Shown here piece by piece: positions 1 to 63,791 of a DNA stretch of 64,000 nt. Made by a program: the position numbers and the translations under genes. The DNA is taken from the NCBI GenBank assembly GCA_963555815.3, contig CAUVWX020000001.1, forward strand, positions 1,281,533-1,345,532, read 5' to 3'. The notes under the pieces were generated by a model. The model made no database searches. It was not told the DNA's origin and saw only the letters and a program-made list of their open reading frames with translations. The stretch comes from a bacterium. Its GTDB lineage: Bacteria > UBA8248 > JACPRG01 > G963555815. Position 1 is the stretch's first letter; the number at the start of each line of letters is the position of its first letter.

Positions 1-1276
1 AAGTCGGGGCAGGATACGCTCCGGGGCAAAGCGTTCCCCCAGGAGGGCCCGCCCCGCTTGACCCATATCGGCCGCCCGGACTGGGTCTTGCAGGAGGTCG
101 GCGATCCGGTCCGCCAGCTCTCTTGGATCACCCGGCTTGACGACGAACCCCGTCACCTGATCCTCGATGATCTCGGGTATTCCTCCCACGCGGCTCCCCA
201 CCACCGGCTTGGAAAGGCTCATGGCCTCCAATAAGACCCGGGCGAGGGGCTCTGGCCAGGTGGAAGGCAAGATCATGACACTTGAAATCGAGAACAGATC
301 GATGACTTCCTTGTTAGAGAGCGGAGGGATGTGAAACAGGTTTCCATTCTCTCGATAGGAATCCGGAAAGGGGATAGCTGGATTGGGGGAACCCACCACG
401 ACGAAGAGGGCCTTGGGCACCTTTTGCATCACCAGGGGGATGGCCTCAAAGAGGATATGGGCCCCCTTCCCGAATGAGATCTTCCCTGCTGCATATGTGA
501 CGAGGGGACGGCCCTCCGGAAGGCCGAACTTGATGTGGATCTCTTCGGAGGAGGAGGAGCGGGGAGCCTGAGGCGGGGGAAGGTTGTACACCGCCACCAT
601 CCTGGAAGCACACTCCGAGAAACCGCAATCGAGATAGAGTCGGCGGATCCCTTCGGAGACGGGGATAATCGTATCCATGCGTCGAAGGCACCAGCGCCGA
701 AGGAGGAGGTCCAGGCCTCGGTGGACCCCTCCGAGGAGGAATTTCATGCAGCCCAGCCATCGAAGTTGGGGATGATTTCGCCTCTGAAAAGCGGTGAGGC
801 ACTGAAGGTAGTTCCGTGCACCACACCTGGAAGAGATAATCTCGCCAGGGAGGGCGCAACCCTGCCCCCCCGTGCAAAGGGTGCTGGTGTCCCGAAGTGT
901 CTGAAAAACCTTTATGTGAGAGAGGCGCCCCGCTAGGAGAGATCCGACCGCTGAATAGGAGTTCTGGGCGTGAAGGACCTCGAGTCCCTCTCGCCGGATC
1001 ACCCACATCAGAAATAGGGCTTGATAGAGATAGTGGAGAGGATTCACCAGGAAGAGGCCCCGGGCCATCTCGCCTGGACTCAGGCGCTGGGGAAAGGGAT
1101 AGCGATAGATGAAAACTCCGTCTTCTACCTCCTTGGCTTGGGCCCCGTAGTTTGGCGTCACGACCACCACCTTGTGGCCCGAGGCGGAGAGGGCGCGGGC
1201 CAGCTGACAGGTGCTTTGGGCCGCGCCGCCGACGGCGAAGGGGGGATAGTCCTCAATAACGAGCCCGATGTTCAAC
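1..1276 (-). CDS. Glycosyltransferase, GT4 / group 1 (GT-B fold); 3' end lies beyond the left window edge
   Basis: The third minus frame is open from the window edge to TTG at 1276-1274, preceded by AGGAGA. It is absent from the ORF track because its stop is off-window. My translation: N-term NIGLVIEDYPPFAVGGAAQSTCQLARALSASGHKVVVVTP; C-term EPLARVLLEAMSLSKPVVGSRVGGIPEIIEDQVTGFVVKPGDP (E-x7-E motif). Confidence 0.8.
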
Positions 1277-1302
1277 TTGTAGTTTCTCCTTGGAACTCTG
1301 TC

Positions 1303-2655
1303 TCAGACCCTGGGCAGGGCGGGCTCTCGCGGGGCCCTTTCCTCCCGTGCCCATCTCGAAAAGAGGCGCTGGACTTCGATCCCCTTAAGGACCACCGCCA
1401 CGGCCTTGAAGGCGAGCATCCCCAGGGCGGCGGCCATGGCCCCCAGGTGGCCCCCCAGCCCAAAGGAGAGGATCAAAAAAGGGGCTATCGCCACCAAGGT
1501 CCACCTCAGTTCGATGTCCATCCGTCCGATTGTGAGGAAGAAGGGGCCTTGGGGCATGGAGTAGGCCCCCGTGGCCGAGGCCAGCAGGATGATGAGATAG
1601 AGGGGAAAGGCCGCAAGGTAACTCCCGCCAGAGAACCAGAGGAAGAAGACATATCCCGCCGGAACCAGGAGGACGGAAATCCCGCCGAGCGTCAGGAGAG
1701 AGAATCTCTCGATCTTCCGGTAAGTCTGACGGAGGAATTTTAAGCCTTGGACCCTGGCCTCGGGGAGACGACTTCGGGTATTGGTGATGAGTGGGTTGGC
1801 GAGGACCCGTGGGATGTTGGCGAGCCTAAGAGCCATCGCGAACTGACCTGTCGCCGCCAGGCCGGCGAAGTGAGAGACCAAGATCACAGGGAGGTTCTCA
1901 TAGATGCTGAAGACCCCCTTGTGTGCATGGTAGGTCATGTTGACCCCAAGATACTTTCGGCAGTCCTTCAAATATCCCCCCTGGCGCCAGATCCCCCAGA
2001 CAGAGAAATAGGGAGGTTGTTTTCGTCTGGCATAGACCTTGTAGGCCAGGAAGCCGTAGCCCGATCCGATGAGATAGGCCAGCACATTGGCCCAAAGGGC
2101 ACCTTGGACGCCGAAGCCAGCCGCCACTGCCCCGAGGACGAGGGCGGATCGAACAAAGGCGTCGGTGAGGCCAAGGGCGGCATGGGCCCTCATCGCCCGA
2201 AGGCCAAGGAAGAAGAGGCTCGCAAAGAGATAGAAGATGCCGGCCAGGTTTTGGAGCGTGAGGATCATCACCAGATGAGGGGGCAGGGTTGTTCCAAAGA
2301 GGAGCGAGGAGAGAGAGCCGATCAAAAGGGACCCCACACCCAACAGGAGAAGGGAGAGGATCAGCTGACTCTTCAGGAAAAAAGCAAGGATCCTTCGGGC
2401 TTCTTCCCTCTTTCCCCGAAGGCGCGCATCCGAAAAGAAGACAACGGCGGTATTTAGAACCGGTGGCTGGACAATTACATGGAGAATGCCATAGACGCCG
2501 AAGGCGAGTGAATAGAGGCCGAGGTCTGTCGCACCTAAGAGGGAGGCCAGGGCGAGGAAGGCCAGCATGCGGACGGCATTGGACACAACGTGAGCCGCCT
2601 CAAGGTAAAAAGAATCTGCCACAAATTTTGTCCGAAGGACTTTTGGAAAACGCAT
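1303..2655 (-). CDS. Polysaccharide/oligosaccharide flippase (MOP/Wzx-type polytopic membrane protein)
   Basis: Lower part of ORF 1303..2907. From MRFPKVLRTKF (ATG 2655-2653) the product is about 450 aa of near-continuous hydrophobic helices (LAFLALASLLGATDLGLYSLAFGVYGILHVIV...), typical of Wzx-like proteins. The start is uncertain because the same frame stays open upstream into the sulfatase-like C-terminus. Confidence 0.6.
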   Translation of the reverse strand: MRFPKVLRTKFVADSFYLEAAHVVSNAVRMLAFLALASLLGATDLGLYSLAFGVYGILHVIVQPPVLNTAVVFFSDARLRGKREEARRILAFFLKSQLILSLLLLGVGSLLIGSLSSLLFGTTLPPHLVMILTLQNLAGIFYLFASLFFLGLRAMRAHAALGLTDAFVRSALVLGAVAAGFGVQGALWANVLAYLIGSGYGFLAYKVYARRKQPPYFSVWGIWRQGGYLKDCRKYLGVNMTYHAHKGVFSIYENLPVILVSHFAGLAATGQFAMALRLANIPRVLANPLITNTRSRLPEARVQGLKFLRQTYRKIERFSLLTLGGISVLLVPAGYVFFLWFSGGSYLAAFPLYLIILLASATGAYSMPQGPFFLTIGRMDIELRWTLVAIAPFLILSFGLGGHLGAMAAALGMLAFKAVAVVLKGIEVQRLFSRWAREERAPREPALPRV

Positions 2656-3963
2656 CGACAGTTTGTTGAATGGAAATGGAAAGCGGGGCAGTTTGGGTTT
2701 TTCCGCGGCCGCTCCTGAAGGGGCCTCTACGACTGGCCGCTCCAGGAGGCCCATCATCTCTTTCCGAAGGCGTTTTGCGACGTCAGGGCGCTCCCTGGAG
2801 CGCTCTTGAGTCTCATCAGGATCGCTCAGGATGTGAAAGAGCGAGGATTCCCCTGTCTTTCTGTTCCAGAGGTATTTCCATTCCCGGGAGCGGAGGGAGA
2901 CCCACATCCCGCTCCGCTAGCAAACCGGGTTTCGCTAAGGGCCAGAAGGTCGAGGTGCTCCACCCTCCCCTCCATGAGGGGAAGGAGGCTCACGCCCTCG
3001 ACGGCCCCCCCGAGGGGGATTTTTAGAGAGTCCAGGACTGTCGGGACGATATCGATCCCCCGGACCATCTCCTCTACCTTCTTGGGGTGGCAACCCGGAT
3101 AGCGGACGAGGAGTGGAACCCGGAGCTCCCCATCATAGAGATAGTGGCCGTGGGAGTGCCATTCCCCATGTTCCCCAAAGTTCATCCCGTGGTTCCCGAA
3201 GATGAAGACAAGGTCTTCGGGCCTCAGGACGTCTAGGACCGCCCGTAGGTGGCGGTCCGCATAGGAGAGACGGCTGTCCCAGTAATCCAGGTTATATCGG
3301 CGGTGAATATGGATTGGCTCTGTGTCGTCTTCCCGATCGGTCTCATGGAAGTGAAAGTCAGGTGGATCAGGACATCGCCCGTGGATGTCGAGGTAGTGAA
3401 TCATGGTGAAGTGGGGCGAGGGGGCCCTGGAGAGCCAATTGAGGGCCGTCTCGTTCGTAAGGTGGGCCACCCGGTGGCTGCCAGCCCGGGTGGCCGTGTC
3501 CTCAGGCTGGACGGGGAGATATTCGTCAAACTGGCGACCCAGGTCGTCGAAGCGGCATCGCTTGCCCAGAAATCTCCAGCGGTTGAAAAATTCTGGCCGA
3601 TAATAGCGGAGAAATCCAAAACGTGGGACCCAGTACCCCTGCCACATTGGAGCGAGCGGAGGGGACGAGCCGGGTCCGGTAACCATGGGCGGAGAGGTGC
3701 CTGGGAAGGGAGAGGAACCGCTCATCCCAGTGGAAGTCCCAGATGTTCTTCACCCGGTCAAAGGCACGGGTGTTGAGTCCTGTGAGGAAGGAGGAGAAGC
3801 TCATGTAAGTTGAAGTGGCCTGGGCGATCATGTTGGGGAAGTAGATGGCCTCTGACCGAAAGGCGTCTAGATTGGGGGTCGGGGCAGCCTCCAAGCGGGC
3901 CGTCCGAAGAGAGTCAATCACGATGAAAATGACGTTTGGCCGTCTCTTCACATCCTCAGACAC
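2656..3963 (-). pseudogene. Sulfatase-like protein (alkaline phosphatase superfamily) split across three reading frames; real decay or sequencing indels
   Basis: N-term is ORF 3526..3963 (RPNVIFIVIDSLR, TPNLDAFRSEAIYFPNMIAQATSTYMSFSSFLTG, AHGYRT). The middle is ORF 2826..3725 in another frame (IFGNHGMNFGEHGEWHSHGHYLYDGELRVPLLVRYPG, DIVPTVLDSL). The C-term is the first ~60 codons of ORF 1303..2907 (REWKYLWNRKTGESSLFHILSDPDE). Frame changes lie near 3640-3690 and at the C-run 2908-2910. Confidence 0.6.
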
Positions 3964-4167
3964 TCAGCCCGCTCCCTCAGGGGCCCCAAATCCCCTACGA
4001 ATTCAAACCCTCAGAGTCTTGGTCCCATCTTGCTAAAAACTCGAATCCTATATGCCGGTATTAAAAGGGGTCAAGCCCTCATTCCACATCCCTATACTCA
4101 GGACTCAGGGGAAATTTTGGAATGCGTCATTTTCTTACATCAGTATAGAACCGATGTCGTTTTCTCG

Positions 4168-5283
4168 TCAGACACTACACTCGGGCGATGCGGAAAGCTC
4201 CGTCAAGAGTTCCCTCACAACATCAAGGTGGTTCTGGCAAGCCTGCTTCGGGGGGGTTGAGGTGATGAGGGGGACAAGGGCCTCATGGGCGGAGCCGTGA
4301 GACCGGAGCCGGACCTCCTGCCGGTCTGCCTTTAGTGGGCCAAAGACCGTGTGCGCGTCTCCGAGAACGAAGAGGTCTCCGATCCTCTCGGTCATCAGCC
4401 GAAAGCGGGACGCCGCCTCATCTCTCAGGAAGACTGATTCGACGCCGGGGGTCTCAAGAAGGCGCTGGGCCGCCTCTTTGGTGCGCTCAGGGCGCTTGAG
4501 GAAGACATAGCAGGCCCCGCTCAGGTTCTGGTGGTGGACGACGTGTTCATCCCGGATGATGGGAATCGTCCGGGATGGGATCTTCTGGCGCGCCAGCACC
4601 CGGTCTAGATCCGCCGCCTCCCGCTTTTCCCGCATCCCGTGGTCTGCGGTGATAAAAAGCCTCCGGTCTGGGTTTTCTTCCTGGATGCGACCGAGCTCGG
4701 CGTCGAGGGCGTTGAAGTGAGCCTGGGCCTCGGGGGATTCGGGAGGATGATGGTGGGGGATGTAGTCCGTCGTCGCCGCAAAGACGAGGGTGGGTTTTCT
4801 TTTCTTCAGGACGTGTCTTACGGCTTGGAGCATCCAGAGGTCGATGGTGGAGGAATAGATGTCCTCCTTCGGGCCCACAGCCTCCACCATTTCTTTTGGC
4901 GGGGACTGGGCGGAGAAGGCGATTCCGGATCCCCGGGAGAGAAGGCGGCAAAGTTTTGCCTTTGAGGTCACAAGAGCGGTGGAAAGGCCCGCAGCTTCCG
5001 CCCGTTCTAAGAGGGTGGGGGTCGCGAGAAAGGAGGAAGACTCCATAAAAGTCTCCTCTCCTGTGTGTGAATCGTAGTGATAGTTGGAGGTGATCCCATG
5101 GATTTCTGGAAAGGACCCTGTGAGAAGAGAGGCGCAATTGACATTGGTCACGGTGGGGATGACGGCGTGGACAAGGGAGCGAGTTCCGGAGTGGCCGATG
5201 TGATCTAGATGGGGGGTTTTGACCACCTCCAGGTAGGCAGGGTCGAGTCCGTCGATGCAGAGGATGAGGACTGGGCTCTTGAT
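4168..5283 (-). CDS. Nucleotide pyrophosphatase/phosphodiesterase-type enzyme (alkaline phosphatase superfamily, NPP/PhnA-like)
   Basis: ORF 4168..5226 carries IPTVTNVNCASLLTGSFPEIHGI (Thr-nucleophile region) and FITADHGM. The conserved metal-binding ILCIDGLDPAYL lies in frame upstream of the GTG used by the track. I extended the CDS to ATC 5283-5281, which sits 6 nt after AGGAGG (5295-5290). The start codon is uncertain. Confidence 0.65.
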   Translation of the reverse strand: MKSPVLILCIDGLDPAYLEVVKTPHLDHIGHSGTRSLVHAVIPTVTNVNCASLLTGSFPEIHGITSNYHYDSHTGEETFMESSSFLATPTLLERAEAAGLSTALVTSKAKLCRLLSRGSGIAFSAQSPPKEMVEAVGPKEDIYSSTIDLWMLQAVRHVLKKRKPTLVFAATTDYIPHHHPPESPEAQAHFNALDAELGRIQEENPDRRLFITADHGMREKREAADLDRVLARQKIPSRTIPIIRDEHVVHHQNLSGACYVFLKRPERTKEAAQRLLETPGVESVFLRDEAASRFRLMTERIGDLFVLGDAHTVFGPLKADRQEVRLRSHGSAHEALVPLITSTPPKQACQNHLDVVRELLTELSASPECSV

Positions 5284-5342
5284 GGTCAGCCTCCTGTGGG
5301 ACAGCCCAAATCTCGAATAAGGCGCTTATGCCTTTGTGTCTC

Positions 5343-6110
5343 TCAAGGCTTTTTGGGGGGCCAGACCTTCTGGGCCTCATGATAATCTTGAGGGGTGTCT
5401 ATCTCAAAGACACCTCCCTCAATGTCTATGGTACCCACTGGGAACCCTCGTCCGGTGAGCTCAGAGAAAAAATCCGTCAGGTAGGCCTTCTCGAAGGTCG
5501 CAGCTTGTTGAAAGGCCCCTTCGGGCTGGGTGCGATAGGCCTCTGAGAGGTCCCGGTAGATGCGGCGGGCCCGTTTGGCCCCCTCAGGGGAGAATTTTGC
5601 CAGGCCGATGAACTCCCCGTGGGCCGTCTCAGGGTCTTTGAACCCTTTCCCGATCTGGACCACTTTCCCCGCGGAGGCCCAGACGAGGTCCGCCTCCTCG
5701 ACGGGATGCTGGAGGCGACCCAGGTAGCGCTCCCGCCACCTTAGGTCGCACACCACACCCACTTCCCCCGGGTAAGCCAGAAGCCTCTCCACTACCTCTG
5801 GACCATATAAGATGTCCGAGTAGGCAGGAATGAATCCTTCAGCCATAAAGGGAGAGGCGCAGAACAGAGAACGAAGCGTGGCAGTATTCCCGAAGTCCGG
5901 ATTTTCAAAGTAGGTGAGGCCGGGATAGTTGATGGTCTCGCCCAGGTGGCCCCGGACAAGGGCGATCTCCCTCACCTCGGCGGCCCTCAGCGACTCAAGC
6001 TGCCAATCGAGAATGGTCTTTTGGCCTATCCGATGAAGACACTTTGGAAGATCCTGGGCAAGGGGCATCATCCGGGATCCCAAGCCAGCTGCGAGGATGA
6101 TGGCCTTCAA
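5343..6110 (-). CDS. Nucleotidyltransferase, LicC/PntC-like (probable phosphonate or phospho-alcohol cytidylyltransferase)
   Basis: MKAIILAAGLGSRMMPLAQDLPKCL has the canonical G-x-G-S-R NTP-binding signature. The GEFIGLAKF motif and the 255 aa size fit the family. Confidence 0.8.
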   Translation of the reverse strand: MKAIILAAGLGSRMMPLAQDLPKCLHRIGQKTILDWQLESLRAAEVREIALVRGHLGETINYPGLTYFENPDFGNTATLRSLFCASPFMAEGFIPAYSDILYGPEVVERLLAYPGEVGVVCDLRWRERYLGRLQHPVEEADLVWASAGKVVQIGKGFKDPETAHGEFIGLAKFSPEGAKRARRIYRDLSEAYRTQPEGAFQQAATFEKAYLTDFFSELTGRGFPVGTIDIEGGVFEIDTPQDYHEAQKVWPPKKP

Positions 6111-6151
6111 GATGGCTCCCTTTAGGCTAGTGGGAATTTTCTCCGGAGGTT

Positions 6152-6838
6152 TTAGCCTTCAAACCACTGCACATCCTCAATGATCCGGGCTGCCCCCCTC
6201 TTTCCAATAATGGCGAGTTCCTGGGCGGCCTCCCCCGAGAGGTTCCCGGCAAAAGTGAAGGCTAGAATTTCGGCTGGGTCCTTGGGGTTACAGCTGAGGA
6301 AAGAGTGGGGGACGAAGGGGCGGATGTAGAAACAGTCTCCTTCCTCCATTTCCTGTCTTTTGATTTCCCCCTCCGATTTCCAGTAGAAGCGAAGCCGTCC
6401 GTGCAACACATAAGTGCACTGATGGAGGGAATGTCCTTTGTTCATCTGCAGATCCGCCTCATCGGAGCACAGGAGGGTGAGAAGTTCCGGTTTCATGGTT
6501 GGGATCTCGGTGCTCGTCACAAGGTCAGCATATTCATAGTAGGGTTTCCCACCCCGCGTAATGGTCCGCACATAACGGTCTCGCTTTCTCAAGATCTTGA
6601 CGCCGTCCGTAGTGTCCCTCGCCATGGGGAACATGTCCCGAACATTGAGGGTCATCGCTTGGGCCAATTGTTGAATCTGGTCGAACGTTGGAGAAATCTC
6701 TCCTGACTCGATCTCCTGGATGGTTTTGACTGGCAGGCCGGCCCTTTCAGCAAGGAGATCTTGCGTCAACTTCCCACTGTTTCGATGGGCGAGAATGAGC
6801 GTGCCGAAATCCATTGAGAGGCTAGATGTCGTCTTCAT
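6152..6838 (-). CDS. HppE-like protein: XRE-type helical domain + single cupin with a His/Gln/His ligand pattern (candidate phosphonate oxygenase; could instead be an XRE-cupin regulator)
   Basis: ORF 6152..6895. I prefer ATG 6838 (AAAGGAG 7 nt upstream); a TTG at 6895 would overlap the upstream stop. HTH: GKLTQDLLAERAGLPVKTIQEIESGE. Cupin core: NKGHSLHQCTYVLHGRLRFYW...GDCFYIRPFVPHSF. Confidence 0.65.
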   Translation of the reverse strand: MKTTSSLSMDFGTLILAHRNSGKLTQDLLAERAGLPVKTIQEIESGEISPTFDQIQQLAQAMTLNVRDMFPMARDTTDGVKILRKRDRYVRTITRGGKPYYEYADLVTSTEIPTMKPELLTLLCSDEADLQMNKGHSLHQCTYVLHGRLRFYWKSEGEIKRQEMEEGDCFYIRPFVPHSFLSCNPKDPAEILAFTFAGNLSGEAAQELAIIGKRGAARIIEDVQWFEG

Positions 6839-6891
6839 CACCTCGCTCCTTTCAGATGGAAGACTTTTCCGTGTGGATTGTCCACCCGACG

Positions 6892-8013
6892 TCAAAACAC
6901 GGCCATCAAGATCTTCTTGATGTCCTCCCGGGACAACGGCCTCGGATTGTAGCCCATTCGCTCCGGATAAGACCAGTCTTGAATGAGTGCTTCTACGTCC
7001 CCCTCCCTAAGCCCAAGGGCCGTGAGCCTCATCGGGTGACCTGCCTCCCGAAGGAGCCGGGAGAGGGCCTTCCCGCCTGCTTCAGCGTCAGGGGCCCCAA
7101 GGGCCCGGGCAATGGCCGAGGCCGCCTCAGGGGCCGCCTCGGTGTTGAAGGGGAGGAGGGGAGGAAGGGTAATGGAGCAGGCCACTCCATGGGGAACCTG
7201 GTAGAGGAGCGTCAAAGGATAGGAGAGGGCGTGAGCCGCGGCCGTCTTCGTCTGACTGAAGGCCAAACCTGCATGGAGGCTCGCCCGGCTCACCTCGCTC
7301 CTCGCCTTCAGATTCTGGGGGTCCTGTCTTACCCGAGGAAGACCAGCGGCCAGCCCCCTCACCGCCTCCAGGGCCAAGAGGGTGGAGATGGGGTTTCGGT
7401 TCCGAGACCAGCAGGCCTCCACCGCGTGGGAGAGGGCATCCAGACCGCTCGCCATGGTCACGGAAGGTGGAAGGGAAAGGGTCAGAGTCGGATCGACCAG
7501 GGTGAGATCCGGAAAGAGACCAGGGCCTTCAAGAGAATATTTTCTCCTTCCTTCCCAGTCCCAGAGGGTGGCCCAGGGCGTGACCTCGCTCCCGGTCCCT
7601 GCCGTCGTCGGGATAGCCACCAGGGGAAGCCGTGTCGTTCCAGGCGGCACGCCCTCTCGAAGATATCTCAAGAGCTCTTCCTCATTTGCCAAAAGTGCTA
7701 CAGCCTTCGCCATATCAATGACACTTCCGCCGCCCACCGCCAGGATAATCTCGGCCCCCTTCTCCCTGGCGAGCTGGCTTGTCGTCAGGGCGCTCGAGGG
7801 GCTTGGGTTCGGGGGGACGGGCGGAGCCGCATCGACCGAGAAACCGTCGAGGAGTTTTAGTAGGCGGGCATACAGAGGGGATTGAAAAAGGTGGTTTCCG
7901 GCAAGGAGGAAGATGTGTCCTCTGAGCTCTCGAAGGAGATCAGGGAGGGTATCGAGGACCCCAATGCCGAAGTGGACAGAAGTGGGGAGGTGAAAACGGA
8001 AGTCTTCCTTCAT
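6892..8013 (-). CDS. Iron-containing (group III) alcohol dehydrogenase, PhpC/FomC-like (phosphonoacetaldehyde reductase candidate)
   Basis: ORF 6892..8040 with an Fe-ADH pattern (ILAVGGGSVIDMAKA, PTTAGTGSEVT, histidine-rich C-terminal half). ATG 8013-8011 overlaps the upstream stop as ATGA. Confidence 0.8.
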   Translation of the reverse strand: MKEDFRFHLPTSVHFGIGVLDTLPDLLRELRGHIFLLAGNHLFQSPLYARLLKLLDGFSVDAAPPVPPNPSPSSALTTSQLAREKGAEIILAVGGGSVIDMAKAVALLANEEELLRYLREGVPPGTTRLPLVAIPTTAGTGSEVTPWATLWDWEGRRKYSLEGPGLFPDLTLVDPTLTLSLPPSVTMASGLDALSHAVEACWSRNRNPISTLLALEAVRGLAAGLPRVRQDPQNLKARSEVSRASLHAGLAFSQTKTAAAHALSYPLTLLYQVPHGVACSITLPPLLPFNTEAAPEAASAIARALGAPDAEAGGKALSRLLREAGHPMRLTALGLREGDVEALIQDWSYPERMGYNPRPLSREDIKKILMAVF

Positions 8014-8576
8014 GCCACTTCGTTCTCGGACTTTAAACATTCGCGCAAACGCTGCGTTAAGACTTCGGGTGGAATGGATACCCGGCCTATGCCTGGCGTT
8101 CCCTCGGGGCTTACCTTGACCCAGAAAAATGACGGCCCCGCTTTGATGACGTTAAGGGTCTCTCTGAGCTCTGTTGGCGAGGAGAGGGTGTAGACCTCGC
8201 GGTAGCCGGCTGAGGCGGCGATGTCTGCCAAAGACAGATGGCCGCCTGGCCTTGGCTGTCCACCGGTGGATTCGTAGATGCCATTATCGAGGACGAGGTG
8301 GATGAGGCGTCCTCCGTTGGCCATTAATGGAAGGGTGCTGAGTCCCATGAGAAAGCTTCCGTCTCCATCCAGGATCACCACTGGGCGTTCAGGGCGAAGA
8401 AGCGAGACGGCAAGGCCGAAGGAGGAGAGAAGGCCCATGGAACCTATCATGTAGAACTGGTTTGGCCGATCTCCAAGGGCGAAGAGTTCCCGAGAGATCA
8501 TCCCTGTTGTTGAGAGGAGAACTCCCTTGGACCCGAAGGCCTCCTGAATGATCTGAAGGGCCTCAGCACGCCTCAT
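8010..8576 (-). CDS. TPP-dependent 2-oxoacid decarboxylase, beta subunit (phosphonopyruvate / sulfopyruvate decarboxylase type)
   Basis: From MRRAEALQIIQEAF (ATG 8576-8574) within ORF 8010..8882. TPP-binding motif ILDGDGSFLMGLSTLPLMANGGRLIHLVLDNGIYESTGGQ. The ATGA overlaps the alpha subunit stop. Confidence 0.75.
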   Translation of the reverse strand: MRRAEALQIIQEAFGSKGVLLSTTGMISRELFALGDRPNQFYMIGSMGLLSSFGLAVSLLRPERPVVILDGDGSFLMGLSTLPLMANGGRLIHLVLDNGIYESTGGQPRPGGHLSLADIAASAGYREVYTLSSPTELRETLNVIKAGPSFFWVKVSPEGTPGIGRVSIPPEVLTQRLRECLKSENEVA

Positions 8577-9058
8577 CCGATCATCCCTTCCCGGAGGATA
8601 AGAGCTGCGGGGAGGCGCGTTTCCAGCATCTCTCGAAAGAGGGGTGAGAGACCGTCTGTGGCCTTTGGGGAGAAGACGAGAGAGGGAATTCCTAAGAGAT
8701 CCAAAAGGGAGAGCATCTTTTCTCCCATGACCCAGTGTTCTGGAGCGTCCTGGCGGGTTTCCCCTCTCCAGGAGATCACCATCAGGATGGGGATGCGGTA
8801 GGGCAGGTTGAAAGAGGTTAGGCCGTTCACCACGTTTCCTAGGCCCGAATTCTGGATGAGGATGCCCCCTGGCCGCCCGCACATGTAGGCCCCGCTTGCC
8901 AGCCCCAGGGCCGTGTCCTCCCGAGCTGCGGGGAGATAGGTGACCTCAGGGTCGGCTTCGGCCTCGATCAGGAGGGATTTCAGGAGAGAGCAGGGGACCC
9001 CTGAGAAGAAGGTGAGACCGTGCGATTTCAGAGTTGCCCAGAATCTTTGGGCGTCCAT
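8573..9058 (-). CDS. TPP-dependent 2-oxoacid decarboxylase, alpha subunit (PYR domain)
   Basis: From MDAQRFWATLKSHGLTFFSGVPCSLLKSL (ATG 9058) within ORF 8573..9163. GILIQNSGLGN motif. 162 aa, starting 10 nt after the upstream stop. Confidence 0.75.
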   Translation of the reverse strand: MDAQRFWATLKSHGLTFFSGVPCSLLKSLLIEAEADPEVTYLPAAREDTALGLASGAYMCGRPGGILIQNSGLGNVVNGLTSFNLPYRIPILMVISWRGETRQDAPEHWVMGEKMLSLLDLLGIPSLVFSPKATDGLSPLFREMLETRLPAALILREGMIG

Positions 9059-9068
9059 CTCATCATCC

Positions 9069-11009
9069 TTAGCGGACGCGGCTCCAGGCCCGCTGATAGT
9101 CCTCAAAGGTATCCACATCCATCCAGCCGTGTAAGGCTTCAAAAGCCACCACCTTTTCTCCACGCTGGATGAGCTCTTGGATCATGTCCGTGAAGCCCGC
9201 CTGTTCCAGGGAAGGCGCCTCGTGGAGGGGGGCGCCGGTCTTGCGTTGCAGGAGATCCTGATAGACCTCTCGAAGGATTTTCGTCCCTCGCTCCGAGAAC
9301 ATGCATAGGCCAACGAACTCCCCCTGAGACTGCTCTGGGTCCAGGCGGCGGCCGATCCGAAGAACTCGGGCATAAGATCCATCTCCAGCAAGACTCAGGG
9401 AGGGGTCCGTCATCACCAGCTCGGGGGGAAACTGGGCATCTTTTTTCGTCTCAGAAAAGGAGCGGTCTACGAGAAGGCTCACATCGGCTGTGCTTCGAAG
9501 AAGCCCCTCTAAGAGCTGCCGCTCAAATAGGACGTCGCCGTACAGGAAGAGAAATGGTCCCTCCATCTCGGCTTCGGCGCAGAAAAGGGAGGAGAGGATG
9601 TGGGTCTCGCGAAAGCGCAGATTGTCATAGTAGCGAAGGTTGGGGAGATTGACCTTCTCTCTGAGGTATCCACGGACAACCGCGATCTCTCGGATGTTCA
9701 AGGTGTTGAGGGTTTCCACCTGGCGCTCCAGAATGGATTTCCCCTTAATGTCGAGCATGGCCTTGGGCCGATCTTCGGTCAGGGGGAGAAGCTCCTCATG
9801 AGGCCCAGCCGCTACGATGAGGGCACGAAGGCGGTGACCGCCGACCGGAAGAAAGGCCTGCTCTTGGCGTTTCATGGACGAGAGGTCGATGAGCTGGTAG
9901 ACGTCCTCTAGGGGGACGATCCGGTCATCCACGGCGCTCGCCTGACCCTCGGTGAGAAGGCGCTGAAAAACCTCTCGCATTCCAAAGACGCAAGCCCGGA
10001 GGGCCTGGTTGGCAAAGATAACCGCCTTGAAGCCCCAGGCGGAGAGCTCCTTTACAGATGTCGTCTTATACATGGTCGGGACTGACACGAGGGGACAGGG
10101 CCGGTCCCACTGCCGGGCGAACTCCCGGACCTCCTCGGGGGAGGGGGACCTCGAGTGGATCAAGATGGCGTCAGCCCCAGCGTCGGCATAAGCCCGGGCC
10201 CGTCGAAGGGCCTCCCCCATCCCCCACCCGGCAATGAGTGCCTCACATCGGGCCATGACGAAAAATTCCGGCGTCTGCTGGTTTGCCTTAGCGGCTTGTA
10301 GCTTTCCGACATGCTCCTCGACAGAGACAAGCTCCTGTCTCACTCCTGGGTAGAGGCTGCATCGTTTGGGAAAGGCATTATCCTCAATACAGATCCCCGC
10401 TAGGCCTGCGCGCTCATACTCCACCACAGTTCTGATCACATTGATGGCGTTTCCGTACCCGTTGTCGCAGTCAGCAATGATGGGCAGGGCGACGGCATCG
10501 TTCATCTGGCGAGCGGCCTCCAGGTTCTCACTCATCGTCAAAAGGTTGGCGTCGGGCATCCCACGAGCCGCTGAGACCGAGAAGCCGCTGGCCCAGATGG
10601 CGTCGAAGCCCGCCTCCTCTGCGATCTTGGCACTGATCCCATCATGTGCCCCCGCCAACAGAACCACAGAGGGCCCCTCAAGGAGGGCCCTGAACTGCCG
10701 AGCCCGCGAGACGCCATTGAGCGAAACTTGGCCTGACAGAAACCTTCCTGATGAAGAACCACTCAGGGCGATTTGCTCGCCTTCGTTGTCCTTGGGAGGG
10801 AGGTGGCCGCTCGCTTGCAATAGTGAACGAAGTTCCAAGCCGTAGGCCTGGGCGAGTTTTTTAAGGATGTTGAGGTGTGGGTCCTTGCGAATCCCCCGCT
10901 CGAGCTGGGAGATGTAAGGGCTTGAGACGCCTGAAGCCCCTGAAGCTTCACGGATAGAGAGTTTCGAGGCCTCTCTGGCCTTCTTTAGGACAGCTCCAAG
11001 CGGGTCCAT
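9069..11009 (-). CDS. Three-domain fusion: XRE HTH + PEP mutase-family domain + C-terminal nucleotidyltransferase-like domain
   Basis: 646 aa. Res 1-65 are HTH (SIREASGASGVSSPYISQLERGIRKDP). Res ~100-365 are PepM-like (ASGFSVSA, IIADCDNGYG, CEALIAGWGMGEALRRARAYADAGADAILIHS). Res ~393-646 are LicC-like (RPKAMLDIKGKSILERQVETL, GEFVGLCMF). Confidence 0.8.
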   Translation of the reverse strand: MDPLGAVLKKAREASKLSIREASGASGVSSPYISQLERGIRKDPHLNILKKLAQAYGLELRSLLQASGHLPPKDNEGEQIALSGSSSGRFLSGQVSLNGVSRARQFRALLEGPSVVLLAGAHDGISAKIAEEAGFDAIWASGFSVSAARGMPDANLLTMSENLEAARQMNDAVALPIIADCDNGYGNAINVIRTVVEYERAGLAGICIEDNAFPKRCSLYPGVRQELVSVEEHVGKLQAAKANQQTPEFFVMARCEALIAGWGMGEALRRARAYADAGADAILIHSRSPSPEEVREFARQWDRPCPLVSVPTMYKTTSVKELSAWGFKAVIFANQALRACVFGMREVFQRLLTEGQASAVDDRIVPLEDVYQLIDLSSMKRQEQAFLPVGGHRLRALIVAAGPHEELLPLTEDRPKAMLDIKGKSILERQVETLNTLNIREIAVVRGYLREKVNLPNLRYYDNLRFRETHILSSLFCAEAEMEGPFLFLYGDVLFERQLLEGLLRSTADVSLLVDRSFSETKKDAQFPPELVMTDPSLSLAGDGSYARVLRIGRRLDPEQSQGEFVGLCMFSERGTKILREVYQDLLQRKTGAPLHEAPSLEQAGFTDMIQELIQRGEKVVAFEALHGWMDVDTFEDYQRAWSRVR

Positions 11010-11482
11010 CGATTCCCCCGAGAGATGGGTATTTTGTTAATTCCAGCAAATAAATTAGCGAAATCATAACGCTCCTTCTATCGCTGTCAAGGGGAATTTG
11101 AAGGGCCCCGGGCGACTGGCTGAGAATGGAGCTTTTCCTACGCGATACGCCGCGGTACGCTGAGGTCGCTAGTGGGGTGGGCGGATTGGCCAGTCGCCCT
11201 TCTCTTGCCAAGGCTGGGGAGAGCGCAGCGTCAAGGCCTCCTGTTCGAGAAAGGCCGTTCGCAAGATATTATGGCGAAAGCTCCTCCTGCGAAGGCCTTG
11301 GACTGAAAGGGTCTGACCTGACACCTTCTTTTCCCGGTCCTTCTTTCATCCTTGACGAGTTAAGATGCCTGTGATATATACTGCGGCGCAAATGGGGTGC
11401 TGGCCCTAGAAGGGAGGACGTGGCCTCCAAGGGAGCGGCGCTGTCTGAGGATGTGACCCCTCTCTCTTGAGCTGAACGGCTG

Positions 11483-12400
11483 ATGGACTTTCTGTGGCAC
11501 CGAAAACGCTATCCGACAGAATTGACGGTCGATGCCCATTCCGTCTGCAACGCGACCTGCGTCACCTGCCCCTACCCGAAGCTCAGCCAAGTGTTGGATC
11601 ACGGCAAGATGGACTGGGACCTCTACACCAAGATCATCGACGACTTCGAGGGCATCTGCCGGCGGGAGGGTTTCCGGGGGTCCCTGAGCTATTGCAACAT
11701 GAGCGAGCCCACGATCCTGAAGAACTTCTTCGACTATTTGGAGTATGCCTACCGCAAAGGATGCTTCTCCGTCTATTTCAACACGAACATGTCTTTCCTG
11801 ACCCCCGCCTTCATCGACCGCCTGGTGGCAGAGAATGTCCTTCCGGACATCCATCTGAACATCATGTCCCTTGACAAGGATCAGTACGAGGAGTTCATGG
11901 GGATCGACTTTGAGACCACCATGGAGAACCTGGAGTACCTGGTGGAGCACTACGACACCCGTCAGGTGGACGCGGGCGTCCTCAGCCCCCCGCTGAATGG
12001 CAATGGGGTCAAGGAGTTCCAAATATTCTTCAAGAAGAGGAAGGTCAAAACCTATGTGGTCAAAGCTCGAGACCGGGCCCAGAACGTCCTCGACGAGATC
12101 CACCCCATCATAAATAAGACTTACGGCTGCAGGAAGAACCGGCCCTTGCGGCGGATGCTGGTGACCCATGACGGCCGGGTCTTTCTCTGCTGCGAGGACA
12201 TGGCCAATGAGGTCATCCTGGGGGATCTCAGGGAGGAGAGCGTCGAAGAGGTCTGGAACAGCGAGAAGTGTCGGGAGATCCTGGAGATCATCTACGAGGG
12301 GAAATCCGCAAACCCAAATTTCATCTGTTATCGCTGTGTCCATGGGGTGAAGAAAAAGCCCACCTTTCTTCATGAGGCCATGGGCTGGGACCCAGACTAG
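11483..12400 (+). CDS. Radical SAM protein with SPASM/twitch-like Cys-rich C-terminus
   Basis: C-x3-C-x2-C at CNATCVTC near the N-terminus. C-terminal cysteines LCCEDM...C...ICYRC. 305 aa, divergent from the PepM fusion. Confidence 0.8.
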   Translation: MDFLWHRKRYPTELTVDAHSVCNATCVTCPYPKLSQVLDHGKMDWDLYTKIIDDFEGICRREGFRGSLSYCNMSEPTILKNFFDYLEYAYRKGCFSVYFNTNMSFLTPAFIDRLVAENVLPDIHLNIMSLDKDQYEEFMGIDFETTMENLEYLVEHYDTRQVDAGVLSPPLNGNGVKEFQIFFKKRKVKTYVVKARDRAQNVLDEIHPIINKTYGCRKNRPLRRMLVTHDGRVFLCCEDMANEVILGDLREESVEEVWNSEKCREILEIIYEGKSANPNFICYRCVHGVKKKPTFLHEAMGWDPD

Positions 12401-12476
12401 GTCCGTCGTTGCATTTCTTCCTTGGCGATCTTATGCGCTTTTGCGCGCCACCTCTTCTTCTTGAGCGGAACGGCTG

Positions 12477-12629
12477 ATGGAATTTCTAAGACACCGAAAG
12501 TGCTATCCGATGAAGATAACAACGGAAGGACTCCACAACCTCTCTTCCGTGGCGCAGACACCCATGTTTGAAAGGGGTATGCAAGGGGGAAAAAGGGATT
12601 TTCGATTTCTGTCCGCCGGAAACAATTAG
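12477..12629 (+). pseudogene. 5' remnant of a second radical SAM paralogue (50 codons, no Cys motif)
   Basis: 12460-12510 repeats 11466-11516 at roughly 80% identity, including the RBS region and start (MEFLRHRKCYPMKIT versus MDFLWHRKRYPTELT). Similarity is then lost and a TAG follows at 12627-12629. Confidence 0.45.
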
Positions 12630-12680
12630 GCAAACCAGATCGCAATCATAGTTCTGAAGATCGCAGATTAGAAGCCTTGT

Positions 12681-13652: not shown

Positions 13653-13698
13653 AAGTCAACGTCCTTGTAACCAACAGTCACCCGCGGTAGGCGGTAGA

Positions 13699-63716: not shown

Positions 63717-63791
63717 TGGTGGGGCGTGCTGGAATCGAACCAGCGACATCTGCCGTGTGAGGACAGCGCTCTACCGCTGAGCTAACGCCCC
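63717..63791 (-). tRNA. tRNA-Val (anticodon CAC), CCA encoded
   Basis: The reverse complement GGGGCGTTAGCTCAGCGGTAGAGCGCTGTCCTCACACGGCAGATGTCGCTGGTTCGATTCCAGCACGCCCCACCA folds as a cloverleaf: 7-bp acceptor stem, anticodon loop CTCACAC, T-loop TTCGATT. Confidence 0.9.

What the first reader, a model, noticed from the sequence alone, without database searches (positions are those of the whole stretch)
1..11009. Phosphonate-type biosynthesis genes in one minus-strand unit with activation, transfer and export genes for a surface glycan
SEEN: ten consecutive minus-strand genes with short gaps and overlapping stop/start codons (ATGA at 8573-8576 and 8010-8013; TTGA at 6892-6895). Order: HTH-PepM-NTase, decarboxylase alpha and beta, Fe-ADH, HppE-like cupin, LicC-like nucleotidyltransferase, NPP-type phosphodiesterase, sulfatase-like protein, Wzx-like flippase, GT4 glycosyltransferase. 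ESTABLISHED: PepM, then phosphonopyruvate decarboxylase, then a group III ADH gives 2-hydroxyethylphosphonate. LicC/PntC-type enzymes make CMP-phosphonates for transfer onto glycans or lipids. As I recall, the Nitrosopumilus methylphosphonate cluster likewise pairs pepM/ppd/ADH/MPnS with nucleotidyltransferase and sulfatase-like genes. INFERENCE: the cluster probably decorates an exported polysaccharide with a 2-HEP-derived headgroup, possibly oxidatively tailored. Several members carry non-canonical catalytic motifs (see the separate findings), so the end product cannot be predicted from known pathways.
Basis: partly seen in the sequence, partly recalled or inferred. Interest (0 to 1): 0.7.

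Follow-up and report, generated by a model that had tools for sequence, protein, structure and literature searches.

The report
Methylphosphonate-type surface glycan gene cluster
This is a gene cluster from an uncultured microbe that most likely builds a carbon-phosphorus compound (probably methylphosphonate) and attaches it to an exported sugar polymer; such clusters are known, but its key oxidase belongs to an apparently undescribed half-length family related to methylphosphonate synthase.

Summary
The gene row is real. The minus strand of 1-11009 encodes, in the stated order: HTH-PepM-nucleotidyltransferase, split phosphonopyruvate-decarboxylase-like subunits, an Fe-ADH, an HTH+cupin protein, a LicC/PntC-like nucleotidyltransferase, a PhnA-like NPP enzyme, a sulfatase-like domain, a Wzx-type flippase and a GT4.

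Four corrections apply:
- The sulfatase-like and flippase parts form one fused 884-887-aa ORF in two sister assemblies. In the window, three 1-nt insertions break this ORF.
- The cupin is HppE-sized, but its iron site (2-His-1-Gln plus Phe and Ile) matches N. maritimus methylphosphonate synthase at all nine positions checked. The predicted head group is therefore methylphosphonate.
- The cupin belongs to a rare single-domain family of 72 clusters. Members sit in the same phosphonate module in Planctomycetota, Omnitrophota, Nitrospinia and Thaumarchaeota MAGs.
- The PepM gating loop reads EDN(x5)CS, not EDK(x5)NS.

Main caveats: overall similarity places the cupin equally far from MPnS, HEPD and HppE; no biochemistry exists; and the transferase domain may be inactive in this strain. 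I rate it a new variant of a known kind, of moderate interest.

The parts
11063..11090 (-). Promoter-like site (TTGACA-16-TATGAT) 54 nt upstream of the PepM ATG
   Evidence: 11 of 12 consensus matches. This is a consensus match only; the total count of such sites is not above the shuffled expectation.
9069..11009 (-). 646-aa fusion protein: XRE-type HTH (aa 8-61), PEP-mutase-like domain (aa 106-351; gating loop EDNAFPKRCS at 10356-10385) and LicC/PntC-type nucleotidyltransferase (aa ~396-646)
   Evidence: Pfam. TIGR02320 scores 298.6 bits, below its cutoff of 319.55. Best PDB match is PepM 5unc at 2e-88. The motif is identical in four sister sequences.
8573..9058 (-). Phosphonopyruvate-decarboxylase-like alpha subunit (TPP_enzyme_N), 161 aa
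   Evidence: TIGR03297 scores 126 bits against 113 bits for sulfopyruvate decarboxylase alpha. Start ATG at 9058.
8010..8576 (-). Phosphonopyruvate-decarboxylase-like beta subunit (TPP_enzyme_C), 188 aa; ATGA overlap with the alpha subunit
   Evidence: (TIGR03297 159 bits).
6892..8013 (-). Group III Fe-alcohol dehydrogenase (phosphonoacetaldehyde-reductase type), 373 aa; ATGA overlap with Ppd beta
   Evidence: the best NCBIfam hit is TIGR03405 Phn_Fe-ADH at 304.5 bits, below its cutoff of 423.7. Junction checked.
6152..6838 (-). Single-domain (HTH-like plus cupin) non-heme-iron oxygenase, 228 aa, of the HppE/HEPD/MPnS superfamily. Residues K23, R95, Y103, N133, H136, Q140, F151, I172 and H178 correspond to MPnS K28, R102, Y110, N145, H148, Q152, F162, I184 and H190.
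5343..6110 (-). Stand-alone LicC/PntC-like nucleotidyltransferase, 255 aa (TTG start with AAAGGGAG Shine-Dalgarno sequence)
   Evidence: PDB LicC 1jyk 4.6e-12; PntC 6pd1 7e-9. It is adjacent to the cupin in 12 of 13 loci.
4168..5289 (-). PhnA-like member of the NPP/alkaline-phosphatase superfamily, ~371 aa, with a non-canonical start (CTG 5289 or ATC 5283, after AGGAGG at 5290-5295). The catalytic motifs CIDG, PTVTNVN, TDYxxH, ADHG and SHG are present.
   Evidence: TIGR02335 215.7 bits, cutoff 407.55; PDB 1ei6 3e-51.
1303..3963 (-). Sulfatase-like (Thr-nucleophile type) domain fused to a Wzx/MOP flippase. It is intact in sister assemblies at 884/887 aa. Here it is broken by 1-nt insertions at 3657, 2916 and 2906, and it carries D257N in the GDHG metal motif (3192-3194). 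The largest remaining ORF is 1303-2907.
1..1274 (-). GT4 glycosyltransferase (TTG start at ~1274 after AAGGAG), truncated by the window edge; 450 aa in L014

Best explanation
The cluster makes a small phosphonate and attaches it to an exported glycan.

Proposed steps:
1. PEP is rearranged to phosphonopyruvate by the PepM-like domain. This step is inferred, because the gating loop is atypical.
2. The split TPP enzyme decarboxylates phosphonopyruvate.
3. The Fe-ADH reduces the product to 2-hydroxyethylphosphonate (2-HEP).
4. The 228-aa HTH+cupin iron enzyme oxidises 2-HEP with C-C cleavage. It probably works as an HppE-like homo-oligomer that supplies Lys23 in trans. Because its site is 2-His-1-Gln with the Phe/Ile pair, the predicted product is methylphosphonate plus CO2.
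5. Two paralogous LicC/PntC-type nucleotidyltransferases make NMP-phosphonates. One is fused to PepM and the other is always next to the cupin. The donors may be one for 2-HEP and one for methylphosphonate.
6. Cytoplasmic alkaline-phosphatase-superfamily enzymes transfer the phosphonyl group to a lipid-linked sugar unit built by GT4. The candidates are the Thr-type sulfatase-like domain fused to the flippase and the PhnA-like protein.
7. The fused Wzx domain flips the decorated unit outward.

In this particular window the transferase domain appears to be disrupted.

Basis: gene content, residues and synteny are shown by the analyses cited. All chemistry is inferred.
For: - Family assignments and best structural relatives fit each step: PepM 5unc 2e-88; TIGR03297; TIGR03405; LicC and PntC; PhnA 1ei6 3e-51; Polysacc_synt.
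- All nine MPnS catalytic and second-sphere positions are identical to N. maritimus MPnS. K, R, Y, N, H, Q, I and H are invariant in 72 family clusters.
- The marker rule (2-His-1-Gln plus Phe plus Ile) is the one used in the field (PMC11978286).
- The AF2 model has pLDDT 89. It superposes on the MPnS half at TM 0.83, the SaHEPD half at 0.82 and HppE at 0.77.
- IMG names a member at 90% identity or more 'methylphosphonate synthase'.
- The module of LicC, cupin, PepM-NTase, Ppd and ADH recurs in 12 loci from four or more phyla.
- The Thaumarchaeota locus also has sulfatase-like, Phosphodiest, GT2, PMT_2 and flippase genes. Omnitrophota and Planctomycetia loci have GT2 and PMT genes.
- Stand-alone and fused NTases form two conserved orthologous sets.
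- dN/dS is 0.19-0.37 for the cupin, LicC, the NPP gene and the fusion between L014 and L016.
- Ppm-PntC fusions and clusters with two PntCs are documented (PMC8942020).
- Published mpnS neighbourhoods include glycosyltransferases, nucleotidyltransferases and arylsulfatase-like genes (PMC9381506).
Against: - The cupin is half the length of every characterised MPnS or HEPD.
- Profile HMMs of the MPnS-type, HEPD-II-type and HppE-type groups score it almost equally: 148.8, 146.7 and 139.3 bits. Its single-domain match to the SaHEPD N-domain (117 bits) exceeds its match to the MPnS N-domain (88 bits). The methylphosphonate call therefore rests on three residues.
- The PepM-like domain lacks two residues of the EDK(x5)NS signature. 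It has Cys where PepM has Asn122, as in lyases and CPEP mutase, and it scores below the TIGR02320 cutoff.
- All pathway NCBIfam hits fall below their equivalog cutoffs.
- In the window the sulfatase-like domain is frameshifted and carries D257N.
- A sister assembly lacks the cupin altogether.
- No acceptor, transferase chemistry or expression data exist. Co-transcription is not shown.
Confidence: 0.55

Rival explanations
1. The pathway is the same, but the cupin behaves like a class II HEPD. It would make hydroxymethylphosphonate plus formate, or another oxidised 2-HEP product, and that compound would be the head group.
For: - The single-domain match to the SaHEPD N-domain is stronger than the match to the MPnS N-domain: 116.7 against 88.3 bits.
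- Identity to SaHEPD_N is 37.8%, against 33.9% to NmMPnS_N.
- The HEPD-II profile scores 146.7 bits, against 148.8 for the MPnS profile.
- 44 of 72 family members carry Tyr at the F162 position.
Against: - The window protein has Phe151 and Ile172, not the Tyr/Gly pair of HEPD-II.
- Ile is invariant across the family.
Confidence: 0.2
2. In this strain the cluster is decaying and is no longer a complete decoration system. The transferase domain is a pseudogene, PepM is altered, and only part of the pathway works, or none of it.
For: - There are three 1-nt insertions in non-homopolymer context. Two of them are shared with an independent assembly, L017.
- D257N in the GDHG motif is specific to the window.
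- The NPP gene lacks a canonical start codon.
- L017 lacks the cupin and has a fragmented LicC.
- L014 lacks 355 bp of the neighbouring rSAM gene.
Against: - The source contigs look like long-read metagenome assemblies, and one is at 8x coverage. Different genes are broken in different assemblies, so indels may be consensus errors.
- L014 (99.2% identity) and L016 (89%) have the intact fusion, and dN/dS is below 0.4.
- The PepM variant is fixed in all four sister sequences.
Confidence: 0.25
3. The cluster makes a diffusible small-molecule phosphonate, as in fosfomycin or other antibiotic pathways, rather than a glycan decoration. The HppE-like protein would act as an epoxidase.
For: - The protein has HppE-like size and fold (TMt 0.72-0.77).
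- The HppE profile scores 139 bits.
- The PepM-NTase fusion recalls Fom1, and the Fe-ADH recalls FomC (my own knowledge).
- A radical SAM gene lies divergently upstream.
Against: - The metal ligand is Gln, not the Glu found in all HppE-type sequences.
- The neighbouring rSAM is a SPASM-type protein with no B12 domain. It is absent from all 12 related loci and is partly deleted in L014.
- The cluster carries flippase, GT4 and transferase-like genes, and the related loci carry GT2, PMT and flippase genes.
Confidence: 0.05
4. The HTH+cupin protein is an XRE-family transcription factor with a cupin sensor domain, as NCBI annotates many family members. It would regulate the cluster rather than act as an enzyme.
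For: - HTH_3 and Cupin_2 are the only Pfam hits.
- Public names for family members include 'XRE family transcriptional regulator'.
- XRE-cupin regulators such as PuuR exist; there is a weak 23-bit hit.
Against: - The match to MPnS is full length (4e-50), and every iron ligand and phosphonate-binding residue is conserved and invariant in 72 clusters.
- The same HTH-like alpha domain is an integral part of the enzymes HppE, HEPD and MPnS.
Confidence: 0.05
5. The phosphonate ends up on a lipid (a phosphonolipid) or a protein, not on a polysaccharide.
For: - NMP-phosphonates also feed phosphonolipid synthesis, as in the clusters with two PntCs described in PMC8942020.
- No acceptor is identified here.
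Against: - No CDP-alcohol phosphatidyltransferase-type gene lies in the row.
- The transferase-like domain is fused to a Wzx-type oligosaccharide flippase and followed by GT4.
Confidence: 0.1

Closest known systems
Methylphosphonate synthase (MPnS) and the Nitrosopumilus maritimus-type mpnS cluster
   Same: - It has the 2-His-1-Gln triad, the Phe and Ile second-sphere residues, and the Lys/Arg/Tyr/Asn phosphonate-binding residues.
- Its neighbours are pepM, ppd, Fe-ADH, nucleotidyltransferase, sulfatase-like and glycosyltransferase genes.
   Different: - It has one HTH+cupin unit (228 aa) instead of two fused units (~450 aa).
- Identity is only 30-34%.
- It is not closer overall to MPnS than to HEPD-II or HppE.
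HppE / Psf4 (hydroxypropylphosphonate epoxidase, fosfomycin pathway)
   Same: - It has a single alpha domain plus cupin architecture and a similar length.
- Whole-chain structural matches give TMt 0.72-0.77.
- The phosphonate-binding K, R, Y and N residues are the same.
   Different: - The third iron ligand is Gln, not Glu.
- No Fom3-type methyltransferase is present to make 2-HPP.
- The context is glycan genes, not an antibiotic cluster.
Class II HEPD (Streptomyces albus, PDB 6b9r)
   Same: - It has the 2-His-1-Gln site.
- This is the highest single-domain sequence score (116.7 bits) and a TMq of 0.82.
   Different: - It has Phe/Ile instead of Tyr/Gly at the product-determining positions.
- It has a single domain.
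Ppm-PntC fusions and phosphonate clusters with two PntCs (Li and Horsman 2022, PMC8942020)
   Same: PepM is fused to a PF12804 nucleotidyltransferase, and a second stand-alone paralogue is present.
   Different: - The route here goes through an Fe-ADH (2-HEP) and a cupin oxygenase, not through AEP transaminase and phospholipid genes.
- PepM carries an extra N-terminal XRE HTH and an EDN(x5)CS loop.
Alkaline-phosphatase-superfamily phospho-transferases with a Thr nucleophile (EptA/MCR-1, LtaS) and phosphonoacetate hydrolase PhnA
   Same: - The sulfatase-fold domain has Thr at the nucleophile position and DxxD/GDHG-type metal motifs.
- The NPP protein aligns end to end with PhnA 1ei6 and keeps all catalytic motifs.
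   Different: - The sulfatase-like domain is N-terminal to a Wzx flippase and has no signal peptide, so it is predicted to be cytoplasmic. In EptA and LtaS the domain is C-terminal and periplasmic.
- This fusion is found only in its own lineage.
- The PhnA-like protein scores 216 bits against the 408-bit equivalog cutoff.

Membership tests
Methylphosphonate synthase (MPnS) | 2-His-1-Gln iron-binding triad (H148, Q152, H190) | tested here: met
   H136, Q140 and H178 align to these positions. They are invariant in 72 family clusters.
Methylphosphonate synthase (MPnS) | Gln-adjacent Phe162 and Ile184, required for methylphosphonate rather than HMP (criterion quoted in PMC11978286) | tested here: met
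   F151 and I172 occupy these positions. Across the family, Ile is invariant; Phe occurs in 27 of 72 clusters and Tyr in 44 of 72.
Methylphosphonate synthase (MPnS) | Two tandem (alpha domain + cupin) units in one ~450-aa chain | tested here: not met
   The protein is 228 aa, and the next gene starts 41 nt downstream. All 12 related loci encode proteins of 231-255 aa.
Methylphosphonate synthase (MPnS) | Converts 2-HEP to methylphosphonate plus CO2 | not testable with these tools
   This needs an enzyme assay.
HppE epoxidase | 2-His-1-Glu triad | tested here: not met
   Gln is at the Glu position, whereas all HppE-type sequences in the alignment have Glu.
HppE epoxidase | Single alpha+cupin chain of ~190-200 aa | tested here: met
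   The protein is 228 aa. Foldseek gives TMt 0.72-0.77 over whole HppE chains.
Class II HEPD | 2-His-1-Gln with Tyr163 and Gly184 | tested here: not met
   Phe and Ile occupy these positions.
PEP mutase (PepM/Ppm) | EDK(x5)NS active-site motif (criterion quoted in bioRxiv 10.1101/2020.11.04.368217) | tested here: not met
   The motif is EDNAFPKRCS, with two of the signature residues changed. That paper's relaxed rule accepts up to two changes when the gene is adjacent to Ppd or MpnS, and this gene meets the relaxed rule.
PEP mutase (PepM/Ppm) | Score above the TIGR02320 equivalog cutoff | tested here: not met
   The score is 298.6 bits against a cutoff of 319.55. It is still the best-scoring ICL-superfamily model; PPH scores 252 and PrpB 185.
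Phosphonopyruvate decarboxylase | TIGR03297 equivalog match; scores better than sulfopyruvate decarboxylase | tested here: inconclusive
   The gene is split in two, scoring 126 and 159 bits against a single-chain cutoff of 312.5. Both halves score higher than against the ComD/ComE models, where they score 113 and 130 bits.
Phosphonoacetaldehyde reductase (Phn Fe-ADH, TIGR03405) | Equivalog-level match | tested here: inconclusive
   This is the best family, at 304.5 bits, but it falls below the cutoff of 423.7.
LicC/PntC cytidylyltransferases | NTP_transf_3 fold with closest solved relatives LicC and PntC; phosphonate specificity | tested here: inconclusive
   The fold and the closest relatives fit: PF12804 and PDB 1jyk and 6pd1. 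Substrate specificity cannot be tested here.
Type I (formylglycine) sulfatases | C/S-x-P-x-R motif for formylglycine | tested here: not met
   The aligned segment is T-Y-M-S-F, with Thr at the nucleophile position.
Phosphonoacetate hydrolase PhnA | TIGR02335 equivalog cutoff | tested here: not met
   The score is 215.7 bits against 407.55. The catalytic core is conserved, and the match to PDB 1ei6 is 3e-51.
Wzx/MOP flippase | Polysacc_synt domain above the gathering score | tested here: met
   PF01943 scores 52.8 bits against a cutoff of 28.2.

The most novel reading that the evidence does not exclude
The 228-aa protein would represent a functional, unduplicated (HppE-sized) methylphosphonate synthase that works as a homo-oligomer. 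Its family is usually annotated as XRE regulators or hypothetical proteins. Members sit in groundwater and sediment lineages: Planctomycetota, Omnitrophota, Nitrospinia, and a Thaumarchaeota MAG whose habitat was not determined. The family would then mark unrecognised, non-SAR11 and non-Nitrosopumilus sources of methylphosphonate, and so of aerobic methane. It would also represent the pre-duplication state of the MPnS/HEPD lineage. In the window's lineage, phosphonyl transfer would additionally be physically coupled to export, through a transferase-flippase fusion.
Probability: 0.4. Interest if true: 0.72.

Novelty: new variant of a known kind. Interest (0 to 1): 0.55.

Why it matters
Methylphosphonate is the substrate behind aerobic methane production. 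Surveys recognise producers by full-length MPnS models and identity cut-offs.

- **Hidden producers.** A half-length family with the complete MPnS active site, embedded in the pepM/ppd/ADH module in several uncultured phyla, could be missed by such surveys. Public annotation mostly calls its members regulators or hypothetical proteins. If active, the family widens the list of methylphosphonate producers to groundwater and sediment lineages.
- **Enzyme evolution.** It offers a minimal scaffold for asking how HppE, HEPD and MPnS diverged, and what fixes the product outcome.
- **Export coupling.** The transferase-flippase fusion suggests a testable link between phosphonylation and export.
- **Natural comparison.** Sister strains with and without the cupin gene allow a comparison of 2-HEP and methylphosphonate decoration.

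Tried and rejected
- **Source organism.** The single genome-contig scan found no copy of the source genome itself; the best match was 53% identical. Cluster look-ups carried no organism names. The only Rfam hit in the window was one tRNA. The taxon stays unknown.
- **Origin of the PepM HTH.** I tested whether the N-terminal HTH derives from the cupin's alpha domain. BLASTP found no similarity (E 4.7), so I rejected this.
- **Operator for the HTH.** I searched the 11010-11482 intergenic region for an operator palindrome and found none of note.
- **Divergent radical SAM gene (11483-12400) as a Fom3-like partner.** Rejected. It is SPASM-type without a B12 domain, absent from all 12 related loci, and partly deleted in L014.
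- **Classification by overall similarity.** Profile HMMs of the MPnS, HEPD-II and HppE groups score the cupin within 10 bits of each other, so this was uninformative.
- **Literature.** Searches for a described single-domain MPnS or HEPD found nothing; one search was wasted on an unspecific term. The Born 2017 and Metcalf 2012 papers are not held. The marker rule is therefore cited second-hand from PMC11978286, and details of the structural mechanism rest on my own knowledge.
- **Homopolymer errors as the cause of the frameshifts.** The three insertions are not in homopolymer runs, so this simple explanation does not fit. Systematic long-read errors remain possible.

Full report
**Observation**

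Pfam assigns the products as follows:
- 9069-11009: HTH_3 + PEP_mutase (1e-62) + NTP_transf_3
- 8573-9163: TPP_enzyme_N
- 8010-8576: TPP_enzyme_C
- 6892-8040: Fe-ADH
- 6152-6895: HTH_3 + Cupin_2
- 5343-6110: NTP_transf_3
- 4168-5226: Phosphodiest
- two overlapping ORFs at 2826-3963: Sulfatase
- 1303-2907: Polysacc_synt

A GT4 occupies 1-1274 and runs off the window.

Gene junctions:
- The ATGA overlaps at 8573-8576 and 8010-8013 are real.
- The TTGA at 6892-6895 exists. The cupin more likely starts at ATG 6838, which follows AAAGGAG, as in three independent gene calls.
- A TTGACA-16-TATGAT site lies at 11090-11063, upstream of PepM. No convincing terminator lies inside the row.
- The 204-nt gap between the NPP gene and the sulfatase gene contains weak promoter-like sites. 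A single transcript is therefore plausible but unproven.

**Corrections to the anatomy**

The sulfatase-like reading frame changes twice. Four sister assemblies were retrieved:

| Locus | Identity to window | Contig |
|---|---|---|
| L001/L015 | 99.9% | 93.5 kb; ends at window 3685 |
| L014 | 99.2% | 2.15 Mb |
| L017 | 98-99.6% | 2.13 Mb, 8x coverage |
| L016 | 89% | 10.1 kb (JGI) |

- In L014 and L016 the sulfatase-like domain and the Wzx flippase form one ORF of 884 and 887 aa.
- Relative to these, the window has single-base insertions at 3657, 2916 and 2906. None is in a homopolymer run.
- The first two insertions are shared with L017.
- The window alone also has D257N in the GDHG metal motif.
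- The assemblies look like long-read metagenome assemblies, and different genes are broken in different assemblies. I therefore cannot tell real pseudogenisation from consensus error.
- The ancestral state is clearly a fusion under purifying selection. dN/dS between L014 and L016 is 0.28 for the fusion, 0.27 for the NPP gene, 0.19 for LicC and 0.37 for the cupin.
- A database search found this fusion only in its own lineage (P0179 at 100% and P0180 at 84% identity to the L014 query). More distant relatives of the sulfatase-like domain are fused to TPR repeats or to a PF03706 membrane domain.
- The domain lacks the CxPxR formylglycine motif and has Thr at the nucleophile position. It resembles a phospho-transferase or hydrolase of the alkaline-phosphatase superfamily, not a sulfatase.

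The NPP protein is specifically PhnA-like. It matches PDB 1ei6 at 3e-51 and TIGR02335 at 216 bits, below the 408-bit cutoff, and keeps all catalytic motifs. No canonical start codon precedes its N-terminal metal motif. AGGAGG is followed by CTG-ACC-ATC, and the 89% relative has TTG at the CTG position.

**The cupin**

This is the most informative gene.
- Its best solved relatives are N. maritimus MPnS (4e-50, matching both halves of the 457-aa chain), S. albus HEPD (1.5e-40) and HppE/Psf4 (1.7e-21 and 7e-16).
- An exhaustive HMMER search of 1.84 billion representatives found 1033 relatives. Most are two-domain proteins of about 450 aa, with a few single-domain ones.
- In a domain-level alignment numbered on MPnS, the window protein has K28, R102, Y110, N145, H148, Q152, F162, I184 and H190. 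All nine match N. maritimus MPnS. HEPD-II sequences read ..Q-Y-G-H, and HppE sequences have Glu instead of Gln.
- The field uses the 2-His-1-Gln triad plus the Phe and Ile next to the Gln as the test for methylphosphonate synthesis (PMC11978286).
- A profile search recovered 72 clusters of single-domain proteins of 222-274 aa. K, R, Y, N, H, Q, I and H are invariant in them. The Phe position is Phe in 27 clusters, including this one, and Tyr in 44.
- Public names for these proteins are mostly 'hypothetical' or 'XRE family transcriptional regulator'. IMG calls one member, at 90% identity or more, 'methylphosphonate synthase'.
- An AlphaFold model (pLDDT 89.2) matches whole HppE chains at TMt 0.72-0.77. 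It matches one half of MPnS and SaHEPD at TMq 0.79-0.83.

One caveat matters here. Overall similarity does not classify the protein. Profile HMMs of MPnS-type N-domains, HEPD-II N-domains and HppE score it at 148.8, 146.7 and 139.3 bits. An NJ tree places the single-domain clade between the two-domain N-halves and HppE. The family is a separate branch of the superfamily. The methylphosphonate prediction rests on active-site residues only.

**Comparative context**

A scan of GTDB species representatives found 12 loci encoding single-domain homologues of 231-255 aa. They come from Planctomycetota, Omnitrophota, Nitrospinia, Gammaproteobacteria and a Thaumarchaeota MAG.
- A LicC-like nucleotidyltransferase is adjacent to the cupin in 11 of the 12 loci and one gene away in the twelfth (L003).
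- In most loci a PepM-nucleotidyltransferase fusion, Ppd subunits and an Fe-ADH follow.
- Stand-alone and fused nucleotidyltransferases match their own counterparts across loci better than they match each other. They are therefore two conserved paralogues.
- The archaeal locus L003 also encodes a sulfatase-like protein directly after the cupin, a Phosphodiest protein, GT2 enzymes, a PMT_2 protein, a Polysacc_synt flippase and a sugar epimerase.
- Omnitrophota and Planctomycetia loci carry GT2, PMT/PMT_2 and methyltransferase genes.
- The literature documents Ppm-PntC fusions and clusters with two PntCs (PMC8942020). It also describes mpnS neighbourhoods with glycosyltransferase, nucleotidyltransferase and arylsulfatase-like genes, interpreted as (methyl)phosphonate ester synthesis (PMC9381506).

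**The early pathway**

- The PepM-like domain is closest to PepM: 5unc at 2e-88, and TIGR02320 at 298.6 bits, just under the 319.55 cutoff.
- Its gating loop reads EDNAFPKRCS. PepM has K and N at the changed positions. Phosphonopyruvate hydrolase has T at the Asn122 position. CPEP mutase and the lyases have C there.
- The variant is fixed in four sister sequences. L003 has the half-way form EDN..NS, and the more distant loci are canonical.
- The relaxed published rule allows up to two deviations when the gene is adjacent to Ppd or MpnS. By this rule it still counts as PepM, but the activity is an inference.
- The decarboxylase halves score higher against the Ppd model than against the sulfopyruvate decarboxylase models. 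The ADH is closest to the phosphonate Fe-ADH model. All are below equivalog cutoffs.

**Mechanism proposed**

1. PEP is converted to phosphonopyruvate, then to phosphonoacetaldehyde, then to 2-HEP.
2. The single-domain iron enzyme cleaves 2-HEP oxidatively. The predicted product is methylphosphonate, with HMP as the alternative.
3. The two nucleotidyltransferases activate the phosphonates.
4. Cytoplasmic alkaline-phosphatase-superfamily enzymes transfer the phosphonyl group to a GT4-built, lipid-linked sugar unit.
5. The fused Wzx domain flips it outward.

The steps after 2-HEP are inferred from residues and synteny. None is demonstrated.

**Rivals**

- HEPD-like chemistry: 0.2.
- A cluster decaying in this strain: 0.25. 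This reading is not exclusive of the main one.
- A phosphonolipid or protein acceptor: 0.1.
- A fosfomycin-like small molecule: 0.05.
- A regulator rather than an enzyme: 0.05.

**Verdict**

The system type is known. The single-domain enzyme family with an MPnS-type site and the transferase-flippase fusion are variants for which I found no description. I rate it a new variant of a known kind, with interest 0.55.

Noticed in passing
window 6112-6837, compared with L017:14172-14182: A sister assembly at 98-99.6% identity (2.13-Mb contig, 8x coverage) lacks exactly the cupin ORF. The ORF is replaced by the 11-nt string AAGATTACCCC between the ADH and LicC genes. LicC is split into two fragments there. 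This may be a natural presence/absence polymorphism (2-HEP against methylphosphonate decoration), or it may be a low-coverage artefact.
   Followed up: partly
window 10356-10385 (PepM aa 209-218): The gating loop reads EDNAFPKRCS instead of EDK(x5)NS. Cys sits at the Asn122 position, as in CPEP mutase and ICL-type lyases (KKCGH), and Asn replaces the first Lys. The variant is fixed in four sister sequences. The Thaumarchaeota locus L003 has the intermediate form EDNVFPKRNS.
   Followed up: partly
window 10827-10988 (PepM aa 8-61): An XRE-type HTH_3 domain is fused to the N-terminus of the PepM-nucleotidyltransferase protein. Related loci lack this fusion, and three of them (L004-L006) have a separate small HTH gene upstream of LicC. 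The domain shows no similarity to the cupin's own alpha domain, and no operator palindrome was found upstream.
   Followed up: partly
window 5278-5295: The PhnA-like gene has no ATG, GTG or TTG before its conserved N-terminal metal motif. AGGAGG is followed by CTG ACC ATC in three assemblies, and the 89% relative has TTG at the CTG position. Gene callers therefore truncate the protein to 292 aa. It probably uses a non-canonical start codon.
   Followed up: partly
window 11483-14613 (+ strand): A divergently oriented block has lower G+C (0.47 at 12-14 kb, against ~0.58 elsewhere). It encodes a SPASM-type radical SAM protein, a Formyl_trans_N protein and a polysaccharide-deacetylase-like protein, followed by an epimerase at ~16480-17367. 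This could be an Arn-like amino-sugar modification set. L014 lacks 355 bp (window 11521-11876) inside the rSAM gene.
   Followed up: partly
window 3192-3194: A window-specific D257N substitution lies in the GDHG metal-binding motif of the sulfatase-like domain. L014, L016 and L017 all have Asp. This adds to the three frameshifting insertions.
   Followed up: yes
proteins P0005, P0007, P0024, P0027 (representative search): The closest two-domain (~450 aa) relatives of the window cupin have Gly, Ser or Ala at the Gln152 ligand position (GHFQHG, GHFQDS, GHFQDA) and Ala at the Ile184 position. They form an uncharacterised sub-branch of the HEPD/MPnS superfamily and may use a different third ligand.
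   Followed up: no
L014:16982-20687 (beyond the window start): Downstream of GT4, the sister contig encodes two GDSL-type lipase/esterase proteins, a PMT_2 (ArnT-like GT-C) protein and a GFO_IDH_MocA oxidoreductase. The glycan locus therefore extends past the window edge.
   Followed up: no
window 46227-47522, 50530-51732 and 63720-63791: Elsewhere in the window lie a gene whose cluster member IMG names UDP-N-acetyl-D-glucosamine dehydrogenase, an ArgJ-type gene (IMG name for a cluster member), and one tRNA. The tRNA is the only Rfam hit at the gathering threshold.
   Followed up: no
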